DNA of 64,000 nt, from positions 248,001 to 312,000 of the forward strand of contig JANJGN010000071.1 of the NCBI GenBank assembly GCA_026770705.1, read 5' to 3'. Source of the DNA: Isurus oxyrinchus (taxonomy: Eukaryota). Below, piece after piece: positions 24,905 through 62,061 of the stretch (its first letter is position 1; each line of letters starts with the position of its first letter). The translations under genes and the position numbers were made by a program. Below the pieces are notes generated by a model, which made no database searches, was not told the DNA's origin, and saw only the letters and a program-made list of their open reading frames with translations.

Positions 24905-25293
24905 CAGAAACGTGAAGCTGGGTTACAGGGTAATAGTTATGGCTCGGACCATTGTCAAATTCTATTCTGAAATAATAAGGTCCTGCATCTTCCCGTCTGA
25001 TGTTGTTTATAATCAGGGAACAGGAGAAACTTCTTTACCCAGAGAGCCATCTTTCAGGTCTCCAGACAGCCGGGTCCGATTGTGGAACCGTGGTAACTCG
25101 TGACTGTGATCCTTGGAGTGAAAGGCAATGGGAGGCCAGAATTTGTATTTCTCATTATTTAACCAGATTCCGACTTGTCGTTTGTTTTCAAAATGTGCTG
25201 GATAACTGTAGTGACACCGAATCTGTACACACGAACCTTCCTGCGCTGTCACCTCTCGTGGAGTGTCACCTTTCCACTCTTGTGACAGTCCAA
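24905..25293 (-). pseudogene. V-set exon, unit B, frameshifted by a 22-nt insertion that replaces 2 nt
   Basis: 389 nt; reads …GDLKDGSLGKEVSPVP*; the downstream half still encodes YYFRIEFDNGPSHNYYPVTQLHVS in the original frame. Confidence 0.9.
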
Positions 25294-26674: not shown

Positions 26675-26815
26675 CCAGGACCTGTCCGACTGCTCGCCTG
26701 GGGAGGAACTGCCCACACGCTCTGCTTGGGCTGAATGACCTCTTCCTGTGCTGCTCCCTCTGTGTGTTTAATTAGAAAGGGTTGATGTGTCTCTGTGAGA
26801 CAAAATGAGGAAGTA
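26675..26815 (-). promoter_or_regulatory. Exon 1 and PU.1/ETS motif, unit B
   Basis: Copy of 4266-4406; donor at 26675, GAGGAAGT at 26807-26814. Confidence 0.7.
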
Positions 26816-30354: not shown

Positions 30355-30494
30355 TCAAACAGTCTGTCGACTTCCTTTCACTGTTTGTCTCTCCCAGACA
30401 CAGACTCCAGCGATAGTGATAACCACAGCCACAAGGAATATCACAGCTCGTATTCCCAGGATCAGGATCACGTGCAGAATCTCTCCTCCACTGT
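30355..30494 (-). CDS. Activating-type TM and short-tail terminal exon: SGGEILHVILILGIRAVIFLVAVVITIAGVCVWERQTVKGSRQTV*
   Basis: Manual translation in phase 1; ~25-aa hydrophobic span with Arg (30448-30450); polypyrimidine tract upstream. The in-phase acceptor reads CG instead of AG, so it may be a pseudo-exon. Confidence 0.78.
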
Positions 30495-31824
30495 CGAGAG
30501 AACACACAGAAAGAAATCATCACTGACTCTCCGCTTTCAATCTCTCACTCTGGCTGAACAATCAAGCTTCATATCACTGCAACATTTGCTGTAATATTGA
30601 CCCATCCACTGGGATTCAATGTGGAATGAATGTTTTCATTGTAAACACTCTAAGAGTGGACAATCGGAACTTTCCCCTTAGCGTGGAACATTGGTGAGAA
30701 TGGATCATTGTGCTGTTGGACTCCCTGTCCAATGTTTCTCTCTATTGCTGTGTACAGGATTGTGCCGTAGAAAATTCTGGAAACGTTTAGTGCCGGGTGG
30801 AAATCCATCTCGGACATGTGTGCGTATCAGGCAGGATCGAGATGGACTCCCCCACGGACTTACACCCCCCGCTTAATAAACAGTTCCAATCTTTACCCAG
30901 AGAGAGGGGAGAATGTGGAACTCACTCCCATAGGGATTGGTTGAGGTGAACAGGATCGATGTATTTAAGGGGCAGGAGGGTCGGTAACCAGAGGGACACA
31001 GATTGACGAACCGGAGGGGGAGATGAGGAGAATTTGTTTTGACAGAGCGAGTTGTTGTGATCTGGAAGGTGCTGCCTGAAAGGGCGGTGGAAGCAGATTC
31101 AATAGGAACTTTCAAAAGTGGAATTGTATAAACACTTGAAGGAGGAAGATGGGGGCAAAGTGGAGTGGTGGTTAGTGGATCTGATGGGATAGAACATTGA
31201 AAAACCTGGCACAGGCACCATGGGCTGAATGGCCTCCTCCTGTGCTGTACCATTCTCCGCTTCCATGATCTCTCCCCCAGTCAGTAACCACTCCAGATCC
31301 CTCTTGAAGTTGACAGAGAAACAGCAACCACCACACCCACTGACAGCACATTCCTGAGGATCACTACTCTCTGGGAAAAGATGAACTCCCCAACATCCAG
31401 CCTATTCCTGCTTCCCAGAGAGTGTAAACCCTTCAGGGAGGCGCTGAGGAAGTTTTCAATAAAATGACATCAAATCCACCGTTTGAGAAATAATTGAATT
31501 CCGATGAACTCACAGCTTGTGGAGCAAACTGGGAAGTAGAGTTGCTTGGAAAGCTGGGAAACACAAGGATTAAGGGCTACAATGCCACCACTGATGGGAG
31601 GCTGTAACTGCAGCGTGACGTTTACATAGGCAGTCATCATTATAAACAGGGGCATTGGACATAATGGGAATTATGTGCACGGAAATAGTGAGAACATTAT
31701 TTAAGCTTTTCACCAGCAGGAATTCTCTTCCTAAACCTCTCCAACTCTCTCTTACTCTCAGATACACAAAGAAAATCACACAGAATCAGATAAGGAAGAG
31801 TTGGGTTGGTGATTCGTCAAAGAG

Positions 31825-33510
31825 TTAGGTTTCAGGAAGCTTCTTAAAAGGAGAGAGAGAGTTGGAGACGCAGAGAGTATCTGTGAGTGCCTCTATGCAT
31901 CTGAGTGTCTGTAATAGTAATTTCCATATTCTTCCATAAATATGAATGGGAACACAAATCCCAGAATTCAGGCCAACTCTCCAGTGCAGTACTGAGGGAG
32001 TACTGACATTCCAACTGGGGAGAGAAATATCAATATTTAACTCTGGATGGTTTGTAGATCCAATAGACTCGATATCCACCCCCTCCATCACTGGGGCACA
32101 GTGGCTGCAGTGTGGACCATCTACAGGACACACAAGGATCTCCCCAAGGTTTCACAATGGATGGAAGAGAATCCTGGTCACAGGAATGGACAAGTTCATT
32201 CTACATTGGCTCATGGTCCTCAGGACCCTGTTTAGTGAAGCCAGTCTTCCACCCAACACAGTGTCTACAAGATACACAGGGAAACTGTGTAAATATCTCA
32301 TCTCTCTACACCGACTGGTTTGTCTTCGGTTTAACTTTCAGTTATTTTACTTCCTTATTGTGGTTGCTATGGTGAAACTGTGCAGGAAGTGCGAGGGCTG
32401 GACTCTCTGTCTATTCTGACTGCAGCTGTGATGTGGTCGTGGTGATTCTCAGTAAAATGAAACCCTCTGAGCTCCCCCATCCCCGAGGTTTAGGGAGTGA
32501 ATTCCAGAGCTCAGGCCCCAGGCAGCTGAAGGTCCGGCCGCCAGTATTGGAGTGATGGGAATCGGGGGATGGTCAAGAGGCCGGAATTGGAGTAACACAG
32601 AGATCTGGGACTTTGGTTGGGAGAGTTGCAGGAGCTTACAGAGATAAGGAGGCAGTGTGAGGCAATGGATGCATTTGAACAAAGAGATGTGACTTTTAAG
32701 TTTGAGATGTTGTAGGACCAGGAGACAGATAGTTTAGGGGTGATGGGTGAATGGGACTTGGTGTGAGCTTGTACACTGGCTCACTGCTGAATCGGTTCCC
32801 AATAACAGCTCAATAAGAATGATCTTTTACAAAGGCTATTAACCATAAATCTGTCCGAGCTGACGATGATATTACCTTGGAGAAGTGACAGGAGGAAGTA
32901 AGATTTTCCAATCATTATCCACTCCCAGATATTTCATCAGCTTCTCACTCTGAAACTCTGAAAGGGAAAGGAGTTAATGAGACCTCACCTCTTGTCCAAC
33001 AGCTCTCGAGAGATCAGAACTGCTTTTAGACAATGTCTTCACAGAATAATTCACAGAATAATCATCCCTGGGGGATGATAGGTGTTCTGCAGAGAGTTAC
33101 AAGGCTTTAAGAATGAAAAACAACAAAGGACTTGCATTTCTATAGCACTTTTCACCACATCAGGACACCCCAAAGTATCTACAGTTCCCTCATCCCTTGA
33201 GCTAGAAAGATGTTCTGTACAACAGACTTGAGTCTCACACCCAGATCTCAATAATCAGTGGAAATCTTTCAAAGGCATCAATCATTGGAATCTGTCTTCA
33301 TAAAGTCACAACATCAACAAAGGACGGTGTTGGTGGTGGAAGTGAATTCCAATCGTTCCGTTACTTACCCAGGACCTGTCCGACTGCTCGCCTGGGGAGG
33401 AACTGCCCACACGCTCTGCTTGGGCTGAATGACCTCTTCCTGTGCTGCTCCCTCTGTGTGTTTAATGAGAAAGGGTGGATGTGTCACTTTGAGACAAAAT
33501 GAGGAAGTTG
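31825..33510 (-). pseudogene. Unit C remnant: promoter/exon 1 (donor 33369), intact leader (32876-32915), V acceptor retained, V-D2-D3 deleted
   Basis: Only ~4 nt of V remain (32011-32014), fused to sequence homologous to the post-D3 intron at ~61830-62010. Confidence 0.82.
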
Positions 33511-36132: not shown

Positions 36133-36498
36133 CAGAAACTTGAAGCTGGGTTACAGGGTAATAGTTATGGCTTGGACCATTGTCAAATTTTATTCTGAAA
36201 AAATAAGGTCCTGCATCTTCCCATCTGATGTTGTTTATAATCAGTGAACAGTCACCATCTTTCAGGTCTCCAGACAGCCGGGTCCGATGCCGGAACAGTG
36301 GTAACTCGTGACTGTGATCCTTGGAGTGAAAGGCTATAAAGAATCTTATCAGGACTTTGTCATTAAACCAGATTCCAATTTGTGGTTGGTTTTCCAGACA
36401 CGATGGATAACTGTAATGACATGGAATCTGTACACACGAATATTCCTGCGCTGTCACCTCTCATGGAGTGTCACCTTTCCACTCTTGTGACAGTCCAA
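36133..36498 (-). pseudogene. V-set exon, unit D, premature stop (CGA>TGA at 36461-36463)
   Basis: 366 nt; remainder open, with YFFRIKF. Confidence 0.9.
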
Positions 36499-38717: not shown

Positions 38718-38858
38718 CCAGGACCTGTCCGACTGCTCGCCTGGGGAGGAACTGCCCATACGCTCTGCTTGGGCTGAATGACCTCTTCCTGTGCTGCTCC
38801 CTATTTGTGTTTAATTAAAAAGGGTGCATGTGTCACTGTGAGTCAAAATGAGGAAGTG
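38718..38858 (-). promoter_or_regulatory. Exon 1 and PU.1/ETS motif, unit D (with adjacent AP-1-like TGAGTCA)
   Basis: Donor at 38718; GAGGAAGTG at 38850. Confidence 0.68.
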
Positions 38859-45634: not shown

Positions 45635-45776
45635 CAACTTCCTCATTTTGTCTCACAGAGACACATCAACCCTTTCTCATTAAATACACAGAGGGAGCAG
45701 CACAGGAAGAGGTCATTCAGCCCAGGCAGAGCGTGTGGGCAGTTCCTCCCCAGGCGAGCAGTCGGACAGGTCCTGG
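45635..45776 (+). promoter_or_regulatory. PU.1/ETS motif and non-coding exon 1, unit E (opposite orientation to A-D)
   Basis: ACTTCCTC at 45637-45644; CCTGG|gtaagt donor at 45776. Confidence 0.72.
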
Positions 45777-46225: not shown

Positions 46226-46265
46226 ATGATCGGGAAATCCTACTTCCTCCTGTCACTTCTCCAAG
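46226..46265 (+). CDS. Leader exon CDS, unit E: MIGKSYFLLSLLQ
   Basis: gacaATG…CAAG|gtaat; acceptor at ~46185. Confidence 0.88.
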
Positions 46266-53994: not shown

Positions 53995-54369
53995 TTGGAC
54001 TATCACAAGTGTGGAAAGGTTACACTCCAGGAGAGGTGACAGCGCAGGAAGGTTCGTGTGTACAGATTCCATGTAATTACAGTTATCCATCATATTTAGT
54101 AGCGAGATCACCAGTCGGAATCTGGTATATGAGAAGGAATTGGGAAAAATGGAATGAACGGTCTATAGCCTTTCACTCCAAGGATCATAATCGCGAGTTA
54201 CCACAGTTCCACCATCGGACCCAGCTGTCTGGAGACCTGAAAGATGGCGACTGTTCCCTGATTATAAACAACATCAGACGGGAAGATGCAGGATATTATT
54301 TATTCAGCCTAGAATTTGACAACAGGAATAGATACAACGACCGTCCTGAAACCCAGCTTCACGTTTCTG
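53995..54369 (+). CDS. V-set exon E1 (intact, divergent, essential Arg replaced by Ser)
   Basis: ccctag| and |gtaagt; 375 nt; …GIWYMRRNWEKWNERSIAF…EDAGYYLFSLEFDNRNRYNDRPETQLHVS. Confidence 0.9.
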
Positions 54370-57773: not shown

Positions 57774-58142
57774 TTGGACTGTCACAAGAGTGGAAAGGTG
57801 ACACTCCACGAGAGGTGACAGCTCAGGAAGGTTCCTGTGTACAGATTCCATGTCATTACAGTTATCCATCGTGTCTGGAAAACCAACCGCGAGGTGGACT
57901 CTGGTTTAATAATGAGAAACAGATTCCCTGGGCTCCCATTGCCTTTCACTCCAAGGATCACAGTCACGAGTTACCACGGTTCCGCCATCGGACCCGGCTG
58001 TCTGGAGACCTGAAAGATGGCGACTGTTCCCTGATTATAAACAACATCAGACGGGAAGATGCAGGACCTTATTTTTTCAGAATAGAATTTGACAATGGTC
58101 CGAGACATAACTATTACCCTGTAACCCAGCTTCACGTTTCTG
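57774..58142 (+). CDS. V-set exon E2 (intact, Arg present)
   Basis: 369 nt, phase 1-1, ag/gt intact; YFFRIEFDNGPRHNYYP. Confidence 0.9.
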
Positions 58143-60055: not shown

Positions 60056-60424
60056 TTGGACTGTCACAAGAGTGGAAAGGTGACACTCCACGAGAGGTGA
60101 CAGCTCAGGAAGGTTCCTGTGTACAGATTCCATGTCATTACAGTTATCCATCGTGTCTGGAAAACCAACCGCGAGGTGGACTCTGGTTTAATAATGAGAA
60201 ACAGATTCCCTGGGCTCCCATTGCCTTTCACTCCAAGGATCACAGTCACGAGTTACCACGGTTCCACCATCGGATCCGGCTGTCTGGAGACCTGAAAGAT
60301 GGCGACTGTTCCCTGATTATAAACAACATCAGACGGGAAGATGCAGGACCTTATTTTTTCAGAATAGAATTTGACAATGGTCCGAGCTATAACTATTACC
60401 CTGTAACCCAGCTTCACGTTTCTG
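60056..60424 (+). CDS. V-set exon E3 (intact, Arg present)
   Basis: 369 nt, phase 1-1; differs from E2 at RFHHRIR and GPSYNYYP. Confidence 0.9.
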
Positions 60425-60891
60425 GTAAGTGCTGTGTTATAATTACTCAACAATTCACATTCAACACTCAATGGGAAATAACACAAACTGTGACGTTTAC
60501 ATATTAACACAAAACACAGCTTATTATAACACACTGTCTGATTCTCAATAACCTGATGATAGCTTCCAGTTCAGTCCTAAAGCAACCTCTAATACTTACT
60601 TTAATATCAATGATTAAATGTGTTGACTGTGTCTATCAATGTTATCAGTTTATCCACTCCCATCAATCTCTCAAATCCTGTCTTGAAGTCTGACATATCG
60701 ACAGAAGAAAGATTTACATTTCTACAGCGCCTTTCACCACCCTAGAGTTCCCACCCTAAACCTCTCCCTCTCCCTCTTCCTCTCCCTATCTCTCTCTCTC
60801 TCGCTGTGTCTCTCTGTCTCTTTCTCTCTGTCTTTCCATAACACCGACCTCTTCTGGCCAGCTGTCACTAATATCTCCACATGTGTCACAG

Positions 60892-61179
60892 ATAAACCCA
60901 CGATATTCCCTGCTGAAATTATTGCAGGAAAGCGTGTGGATGTAAGCTGCACCTTCAACACAACGTGCAATGGAACAGCAGCACCTGTCTTAACCTGGGA
61001 CACTCCCACTGACGTACCTGGATCAGTCTCAAACACTGTAACTCAGCATGGTGTCACTCTGACCTATACTTCTGTTCTGACCCTGATCCCATCACTCAAA
61101 CACCACGGACACACTCTCAGCTGCAGAGTGAGATATCCAACTGTTTCATCGGAGCGGACCCTCGTACTAACTGTGCAAG
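60892..61179 (+). CDS. C2 domain-2 exon, unit E (uses the internal cacag acceptor)
   Basis: 288 nt, phase 1-1, open frame, CAAG|gtaagt; native polypyrimidine tract replaced. Confidence 0.8.
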
Positions 61180-61502: not shown

Positions 61503-61654
61503 GATATCTGAATATCACAATGAACAGAACAAGTTCCAACAATGAGCTGTGGTTGGTGATTCCTCACGTTACATCCAGGGACACTGGAGACTATCAGTGT
61601 GCTCAGAGAATGAACATGGAGCAGTGGAGGGGTTCATAACCATCACTGTGGAAC
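61503..61654 (+). pseudogene. Broken domain-3 exon, unit E (acceptor and 5' half replaced; 1-nt deletion)
   Basis: MNRTSSNNELWLVIPHVTSRDTGDYQC then tgtgctcagag versus tgtgtggcagag in unit B; upstream intron homology stops at ~61318. Confidence 0.85.
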
Positions 61655-62061
61655 GTTAGTTAAGGCAAACTTCAACATCTCTCTCAGATTGAAACACTAC
61701 AAAAACACACATAAATACCCAGCCTTAAATAGACACCTGCAGACAAACAATCCCACATCTATGAGCACACACAAAGACACACTCACAAACAAACACACTA
61801 GCACATACTCCCCTGTGGATTACCTGACCTCCCTCAGTGCTGCACCGGAGAGTTGACCTGGATTCTGGGATTTGTGTTCCCTTTCATATTTATGGAAGAA
61901 TATGGAAATTGCAAAGTCTATTACAGACACTCAGATGCACAGAGATACTCACAGATACTCTCTGCCTCTCCAACTCTCTATCCTACTTTAAGAACCTTCC
62001 TGAAATCTAACACAGGCATCAGATGAAATTTTGTGCAATTTGTACAATGTTCTTTAGACAG

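What the first reader, a model, noticed from the sequence alone, without database searches (positions are those of the whole stretch)
53995..54369. Intact V domain that has lost the essential sialic-acid Arg and remodelled the binding face
YFFRIE becomes YLFSLE (AGC at 54306-54308). The CC' loop is longer and Trp/Arg-rich, and the G strand changes to RYNDRPE, while all structural Cys and Trp are kept. Loss of the F-strand Arg abolishes sialic-acid binding in known Siglecs. Clustered replacements with no disabling lesion suggest a shift to a new ligand rather than decay (inference).
Basis: partly seen in the sequence, partly recalled or inferred. Interest (0 to 1): 0.7.

Follow-up and report, generated by a model that had tools for sequence, protein, structure and literature searches.

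The report
Shark Siglec heads shedding sugar arginine
This exon is the outermost domain of a shark immune receptor in a very large Siglec-like gene cluster, where about half of the outer domains, but almost none of the inner ones, have lost the arginine that grips sialic acid, so the outer domain likely reads a different, still unknown ligand.

Summary
The Arg-to-Ser change is real (AGC, 54306-54308) and aligns with sialoadhesin's essential Arg. The exon is V1 of a leader-V1-V2-V3-C2 gene in a shark cluster of about 700 Siglec-like V exons; V2 and V3 keep the Arg. The 'remodelled face' is not linked to the loss: the Trp/Arg loop and RYNDRPE occur with Arg in sister copies and in white shark, and one sister differs by one base at that codon. 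Intactness says little: the 21 Ser copies are about 0.5% apart (7 replacement, 3 silent variants), and this copy lost its membrane exon. The better signal is family-wide. In the distal Trp-rich class, Arg was lost repeatedly (Ser 21, Gly 8, Thr/Met 53 copies; 41 of 86 on the two largest contigs), while the other class changes it mostly silently or to Lys. Arg-less heads sit on both activating-type and ITIM-type genes, like great-ape Siglec-5/14. A new ligand is likely but untested; neutral relaxation remains open. The scan noted V1-only Arg loss earlier on other DNA of this genome (e1-9511875).

The parts
46226..46265 (+). Leader exon (MIGKSYFLLSLLQ), phase-1 GT donor; nearest upstream + strand leader, 7.7 kb from V1
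53995..54369 (+). V1 exon: distal Siglec-type V-set domain, Trp/basic CC' class, Ser at the essential-Arg site
54126..54164 (+). C strand end and CC' loop YMRRNWEKWNERS, shared with Arg-bearing V1 paralogs
54306..54308 (+). AGC (Ser104); AGA (Arg) in sister L019 and in most paralogs
54330..54350 (+). G strand RYNDRPE (R112, Y113, R116 align with sialoadhesin R105, W106, V109); also present with Arg in paralogs and in Carcharodon P0021
57774..58142 (+). V2 exon, FNNE class, Arg kept
60056..60424 (+). V3 exon, FNNE class, Arg kept
60892..61179 (+). C2-set exon; normal acceptor deleted, an in-frame AG at 60890-60891 remains (same lesion in L005, L007, L012, L014, L016)
61505..61653 (+). Truncated, frameshifted remnant of a second C2 exon, shared with most activating-type sister genes
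62005..62015 (+). Breakpoint of a 1.58-kb deletion (against L014) that removed the Arg-containing TM exon; L007 and L012 also lack it

Best explanation
The exon is the outermost V domain of a multi-V shark Siglec-like receptor and belongs to a young 21-copy clade that lost the sialic-acid Arg by one base change; this distal domain class has likely been released from sialic-acid binding and likely recognises another ligand, while the inner V domains keep the Arg and would supply any sialic-acid binding. Shown: exon, architecture, copy counts, class-restricted recurrent loss (Ser, Gly twice, Thr/Met), and Arg-less heads on both TM-Arg and ITIM-like genes, with a short conversion-like tract carrying the Ser patch into three inhibitory-type genes. 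Inferred: loss of canonical sialoside binding (from mammalian Siglec mutants), activating or inhibitory roles (from TM and tail motifs), and a paired-receptor logic in which a microbial or other protein ligand engages inhibitory heads and activating copies act as counter-traps. This particular copy lost its TM exon. It is probably secreted or non-functional unless it splices 27 kb to an inverted ITIM-type tail.
For: Genome-wide F-strand patterns: Arg 603; Ser 22, Gly 8, Thr 46, Met 7, Lys 6. On contigs C52 and C71, 41 of 86 distal-class exons lack Arg; the 4 Lys and 1 further Ser hit there fall outside that class. On a tree of 148 unique open exons, the Arg codon changes 8 times in the distal class (all replacement) and 10 times in the FNNE class (7 silent, 3 Lys); Fisher p = 0.004, or 0.02 with one unsampled distal AGG added. 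Distal-class framework pN/pS is 0.43. In the older Thr clade, replacements hit 2 of 46 conserved columns against 27 of 79 others, p = 6e-5. Ser heads: 14 of 21 on TM-Arg genes, 4 on ITIM-like genes, 3 TM-deleted. Thr/Met heads: 4 of 10 checked on TM-Arg genes, 6 on Tyr-tail genes. L020-022 carry the Ser-clade patch at exon nt 312-326 on another background. RNA-like contigs cover the Ser codon with no mismatch (X1) and show leader-V1 and V1-V2 splice ends. The analog is great-ape Siglec-5/14 (PMC6288428 passages); Siglec-5 binds a bacterial protein through its V domain without sialic acid (PMC3190825 passages).
Against: No positive selection was detected: distal-class face pN/pS is 0.71, and the Thr clade has N/S ratios of 1.0-1.3 and 2 stop variants. 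The Ser clade looks neutral: 7 replacement and 3 silent variants, 3 of 7 in conserved columns. The Thr conserved-column test is confounded by conversion from intact paralogs. The tree is weak (78 of 145 inner branches open), conversion inflates change counts, and non-Arg loci were fetched on purpose. The three Arg-less clades share no surface chemistry (mean net charge +0.2 Ser, -2.6 Gly, +6.6 Thr). 2 of 14 TM-Arg Ser genes have a stop in V2 and 3 of 21 lack the TM exon. In the RNA-like runs every contig covering 54021 reads the D9 allele, not this copy's Y9. No shark Siglec-like protein has been shown here to bind sialic acid at all.
Confidence: 0.5

Rival explanations
1. Neutral relaxation in a birth-and-death cluster. 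With Arg-bearing V2-V7 below it, the distal domain is redundant or only a spacer. Arg losses drift and are carried along by tandem duplication and conversion, with no new ligand.
For: Ser clade variants look neutral (7N:3S). Thr clade N/S is about 1, with stops. Distal-class codon changes (8 replacement, 0-1 silent) fit a neutral ratio. Many broken copies exist, including this gene's TM deletion. All 21 Ser genes and 10 of 10 Thr/Met genes checked have an Arg-bearing V downstream, though three of those carry a stop.
Against: Three separate Arg-less clades each expanded (21, 7, 53 copies). The Ser patch moved into inhibitory-type genes on a short tract centred on the Arg codon. The distal domain is the one most exposed to ligands (inference). 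Its framework is under purifying selection (pN/pS 0.43).
Confidence: 0.35
2. The Ser domain still binds sialylated ligands through another basic residue (G-strand R112 or R116, CC' R46/R47, or the conserved D-strand R74), as Siglec-6 does through a non-canonical pocket.
For: R112, Y113 and R116 align with sialoadhesin R105, W106 and V109 beside the pocket, and W6 is kept. Siglec-6 binds gangliosides without its canonical Arg (PMC10122656 passages). The match of R74 to Siglec-6 R92 and Siglec-7 R94 is inferred from alignment and recalled numbering.
Against: These Args are also present in Arg-bearing sisters, so they are not compensatory. The same paper reports loss of ganglioside binding in Siglec-1, -5, -7, -9 and -10 when the canonical Arg is mutated. 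The Gly clade lacks R112 and R116.
Confidence: 0.12
3. One reading: this single exon underwent a coordinated remodelling of the binding face after losing the Arg.
For: Against the FNNE-class neighbours V2 and V3, the differences cluster on the BC, CC' and FG/G segments.
Against: The same loop and G strand occur with Arg in L019, L023-26, L028-30, L051-70 and Carcharodon P0021 and P0011. L019 differs from Ser copy L011 at two codons only.
Confidence: 0.03

Closest known systems
Great-ape Siglec-5/Siglec-14 pair
   Same: Essential Arg lost in V domains shared by an ITIM receptor and an activating receptor with a charged TM residue, and homogenised by gene conversion (PMC6288428 and PMC4042635 passages).
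   Different: One pair with a single V domain in primates. Here there are three Arg-less clades with tens of copies each, stacked on 1-6 Arg-bearing V domains. The adaptor and ligand are unknown.
Primate Siglec-12 / human Siglec-XII
   Same: More than one V-set domain, and loss of the essential Arg (PMC6288428, PMC6829431 passages).
   Different: In Siglec-XII both V domains lack the Arg, it is a single gene, and null alleles are common. Here only the distal V lacks it and the clades are expanding.
Sialoadhesin (Siglec-1) and MAG V domains
   Same: Best sequence and fold matches: E 3e-14; Foldseek TM-score 0.85, rmsd 1.9; same Cys pattern and same A- and G-strand aromatics.
   Different: About 30% identity, Ser for Arg97, longer CC' loop, tandem V architecture, short or ITIM-like tails.
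Annotated elasmobranch 'Siglec-10/12/13-like' proteins (Carcharodon, Cetorhinus, Mustelus, Scyliorhinus, Hypanus)
   Same: Same family, with 1-7 tandem V domains; closest V1 domains 73-77% identical.
   Different: The orthologous V1 domains retrieved from Carcharodon and Cetorhinus keep Arg (one has Lys). Names are automatic annotations, and no functional paper was found.

Membership tests
Siglec (V domain) | V-set fold with B-E intra-sheet disulfide and an extra Cys for an inter-domain bond | tested here: met
   C21, C26 and C86 align with the three sialoadhesin Cys; AF2 pLDDT 88, top Foldseek hits sialoadhesin and MAG
Siglec (V domain) | Essential Arg on the F strand | tested here: not met
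   Ser104, AGC; met in V2 and V3 of the same gene
Siglec (V domain) | Aromatic residues on the A and G strands flanking the pocket | tested here: met
   W6 and Y113 align with sialoadhesin W2 and W106
Siglec (V domain) | Binds sialylated glycans | not testable with these tools
   Needs a glycan array; not shown for any member of this shark family here
Siglec (receptor) | One N-terminal V-set followed by C2-set domains | tested here: not met
   Leader-V-V-V-C2 here, up to 7 V in sister genes
Siglec (receptor) | Type I membrane protein with ITIM tail or charged TM residue | tested here: inconclusive
   TM exon deleted in this copy; an in-frame C2x3-TM-ITIM-like block lies 27 kb downstream, use unknown. 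Met in 18 of 21 Ser copies
Paired Siglec receptors (5/14, 11/16 type) | Near-identical ligand-binding V on genes with opposite signalling ends | tested here: met
   Identical V1 nucleotide sequence on ITIM-like L006 and TM-Arg L004, L005, L008, L010
Paired Siglec receptors (5/14, 11/16 type) | Homogenisation by gene conversion | tested here: inconclusive
   Short Ser-type tract in L020-022 on another background; direction not established and no formal recombination test run
Paired Siglec receptors (5/14, 11/16 type) | Activating member couples to an ITAM adaptor; inhibitory member recruits SHP-1/2 | not testable with these tools
   Only motifs seen: TM Arg in ILGIRAVIF; LxYANI and TEYAQI tails
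CD33-related Siglecs (orthology) | Descent from the tetrapod CD33r cluster | not tested
   No cross-vertebrate tree or synteny test run; best PDB matches are sialoadhesin and MAG, ahead of Siglec-5 and CD33

The most novel reading that the evidence does not exclude
Sharks have turned a Siglec cluster of hundreds of genes into a two-tier receptor. Stacked inner V domains keep the sialic-acid (self) site, while the outermost Trp/basic V domain has repeatedly dropped it and now forms a diversifying, paired activating/inhibitory repertoire for non-sialic, probably microbial ligands.
Probability: 0.3. Interest if true: 0.75.

Novelty: new variant of a known kind. Interest (0 to 1): 0.5.

Why it matters
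[quoted passage not shown] This shark has about 700 Siglec-like V exons in multi-V, paired genes. Why apes lost the Siglec-5/14 Arg is unresolved. Here natural one-base Arg/Ser sisters (L019 against L011) and three independent losses give a direct test of whether Arg loss is escape from sialylated pathogens, a ligand switch, or drift.

Tried and rejected
No run on record as RNA was listed among the holders. X1, X4 and X7 are RNA by guess only, although they hold spliced joints. Their contigs also cover introns, so depth was not used as an expression level. Expression of this exact copy was not shown. Sequencing error at the codon: rejected (21 loci; no Arg allele listed in the reads). Codon-model omega from IQ-TREE was not recovered from the output, and no branch-site or site-model test was run. 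Ancestral states were not reconstructed, so the order of L019's Arg (retained or reverted) is open. Pocket geometry could not be measured, because model coordinates are not delivered. An AU test rejected one clade for the Gly copies (p = 0.012) but not for the Ser copies (p = 0.48). Rows dropped before counts: L003 (the window itself), duplicate or off-cluster loci L151-158, L160, L161, partial exons, and for the tree broken and identical exons (227 to 148); also one off-cluster match and two. Two papers recalled on Siglec evolution (DOIs) are not held and were not seen; they may mention chondrichthyan Siglecs. Paper searches listed no study of a shark multi-V Siglec cluster; subscription journals are not covered. 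No complex prediction was run.

Full report
Observation. Window 53995-54369 (+) is an open, phase 1-1 exon with AG/GT ends that encodes a 124-residue V-set domain. Codon 104 is AGC at 54306-54308 and aligns with the essential Arg of sialoadhesin, MAG and Siglec-5. An AF2 model (mean pLDDT 88) matches sialoadhesin and MAG best (TM-score about 0.85). The three Siglec-type Cys, W6, W43 and the G-strand aromatic (Y113) are kept.

Gene and organism. The closest proteins are automatic 'Siglec-like' annotations from Carcharodon and Cetorhinus (65-77% identity), so the source is most likely a lamniform shark (inference). The exon is V1 of leader (46226-46265), V1, V2 (57774-58142), V3 (60056-60424) and C2 (60892-61179), open over 480 codons. 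V2 and V3 keep the Arg. This copy is damaged at its 3' end. The normal C2 acceptor is deleted, although an in-frame AG remains. The second C2 is a frameshifted remnant. A 1.58-kb deletion at about 62011 removed the TM exon found in sister L014. A C2x3-TM-tail block with intact splice sites lies 27 kb downstream on the same strand. In 5 of the 7 sister loci extended that far, the corresponding tail block is on the opposite strand; L005 matches the window and L008 has a different neighbour. It is therefore probably an inverted neighbour's 3' half, and whether it is used is unknown.

The cluster. The own-genome search gave 1025 first-look candidates, of which 150 were scored. Exact F-strand patterns count 603 Arg codons and 89 others: Ser 22, Gly 8, Thr 46, Met 7, Lys 6. 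C-strand patterns count about 182 exons of the distal Trp/basic class and at least 369 of the FNNE class. Twenty-one exons carry this exact Ser patch. Raw reads from another sample suggest about 20 copies and list no Arg allele at the codon (rough).

The face was not remodelled with the loss. L019 has the same loop and G strand with AGA, and differs from Ser copy L011 at only two codons. L023-26, L028-30 and most of L051-70 carry YMRRNW and RYNDRPE with Arg. Carcharodon P0021 reads YLFRTDFDSRNRYNDRPE, and P0011 and Cetorhinus P0012 carry the loop with Arg. The Ser clade is very young: among 18 copies, diversity is 0.47% in the exon and 0.6-1.2% in the flanks, with 7 replacement and 3 silent variants (neutral expectation 79% replacement), 3 of the 7 in conserved columns. 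Its intactness is thus no evidence of selection.

What does hold up is a class pattern. All 26 Thr/Met loci examined (of 53) belong to the distal class, and 23 are open with canonical splice sites. On the two largest contigs, 41 of 86 distal-class exons lack Arg, and the 4 Lys hits are all outside the class. On a tree of 148 unique open exons (Arg codon excluded from the tree), the codon changes 8 times in the distal class, all replacement, against 10 times in the FNNE class, 7 silent and 3 to Lys (Fisher p = 0.004-0.02). The Arg is therefore under purifying selection in the FNNE class (3 of 10 against about 70% expected, p = 0.01) and released in the distal class. Caveats: weak tree, conversion, and deliberate sampling of non-Arg loci. 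The Gly copies are not one clade (p-AU 0.012), which gives at least four losses. Distal-class pN/pS is 0.43 in the framework and 0.71 on the face, which indicates fold maintenance without proof of positive selection. In the older Thr clade (3% diversity), N/S is about 1, yet replacements avoid conserved columns (2 of 46 against 27 of 79), a test confounded by conversion. In other elasmobranch proteins, Lys or Ser also occur in inner domains, so the restriction is shown for this genome only.

Paired signalling ends. Of the 21 Ser genes, 14 end in a TM exon with an Arg and a short tail (2 have a stop in V2), 4 end in an uncharged TM with LxYANI/TEYAQI-type tails, and 3 lack the TM exon. They carry 1-6 Arg-bearing V domains below V1. 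One V1 nucleotide sequence is shared by ITIM-like L006 and TM-Arg L004, L005, L008 and L010. L020-022 carry the Ser-Leu-Glu..Asn patch (exon nt 312-326) on an otherwise different background, as a short conversion tract would produce. All 5 Gly genes checked (of 8) are ITIM-like. Of 10 Thr/Met genes checked, 4 are TM-Arg and 6 have Tyr tails.

Expression. No run is on record as RNA. In RNA-like runs X1 and X4 (one sample), a contig spans 54264-54369 including the Ser codon with 0 mismatches in X1 and 1 in X4. Loose ends show a leader joined at the V1 start and an EPSQ-type V2 joined at the V1 end. The splice ends are on separate contigs and are not unique to Ser copies, and contigs at 54021 read the D9 allele. 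The clade is probably transcribed; this copy is not shown to be.

Mechanism. Mutating the canonical Arg abolishes ganglioside binding in Siglec-1, -5, -7, -9 and -10, though not in Siglec-6 (PMC10122656 passages). V1 therefore probably lacks canonical sialoside binding, while V2 and further domains retain the site. I put 0.5 on a shift of the distal domain to another ligand within a paired-receptor system, 0.35 on neutral relaxation through redundancy, 0.12 on non-canonical sialic-acid binding, and 0.03 on exon-specific coordinated remodelling.

Known parallels. Great-ape Siglec-5 and -14 lack the Arg and evolve in concert by conversion, and human Siglec-XII carries R122C (PMC6288428 passages; PMC4042635 passages; PMC6829431 passages). 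Siglec-5 binds streptococcal beta protein through its V domain without sialic acid (PMC3190825 passages). Arg loss as such is therefore known. The scale, the stacked V domains and the distal-only restriction were not found in seven searches of the held library. The whale-shark genome paper mentions Siglecs once (PMC8455134 passages). No supplements were read. Earlier scan notes on this genome report V1-only Arg loss, the TM-Arg exon and head shuffling. I had reached these points before the look-up and checked them here on my own loci.

Verdict. This is a new variant of a known kind; interest 0.5.

Noticed in passing
window 45696-45776 (+), 4266-4352 (-), 26675-26755 (-), 33369-33449 (-), 38718-38798 (-): A copy of the cytoplasmic exon of one receptor type (SSTGRGHSAQ...) lies 0.5-1.1 kb upstream of every leader exon in the window, so it may serve as the family's 5' exon, derived from a neighbour's tail exon.
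   Followed up: no
window 36134-36498 (-), 24906-25293 (-), 17-382 (-), 30358-30495 (-): Other family members in the window: a V exon with a stop, a V exon with an insertion and frameshift, an intact FNNE-class V, and a TM-Arg exon.
   Followed up: partly
L034:9108 (+); similar in the extended L001, L002, L005, L007, L012, L014, L016 regions: A second, divergent V-like fragment (32% identity) recurs between tail-to-tail gene pairs and seems to be carried in the duplicated unit.
   Followed up: no
G000:C52:2280502-2294470 (-): Eight FNNE-class V exons in tandem at about 2-kb spacing, suggesting a gene with at least eight stacked V domains.
   Followed up: no
L131-L133 (G000:C150:787600-798100): Inhibitory-type neighbour gene with eleven tandem copies of one C2 exon.
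   Followed up: no
L163-L191 (Thr/Met clade): The larger Arg-less clade also changes F-strand Glu to Lys and Asp to Gly, and is strongly basic (mean net charge +6.6 to +9.5), which would suit a polyanionic ligand. It is a better target than the Ser clade.
   Followed up: partly
window V2 57774-58142 and V3 60056-60424: Inner V domains carry an extra Cys at position 33 (39 of 42 unique FNNE-class exons), absent from all 47 V1 exons examined.
   Followed up: no
just downstream of the window, G000:C71 about 336300-342050 (+), and L005 region: An ITIM-type 3' half lies in the same orientation as the gene, unlike in most sister loci; this is an inversion or a misassembly that could convert an activating gene to an inhibitory one.
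   Followed up: partly
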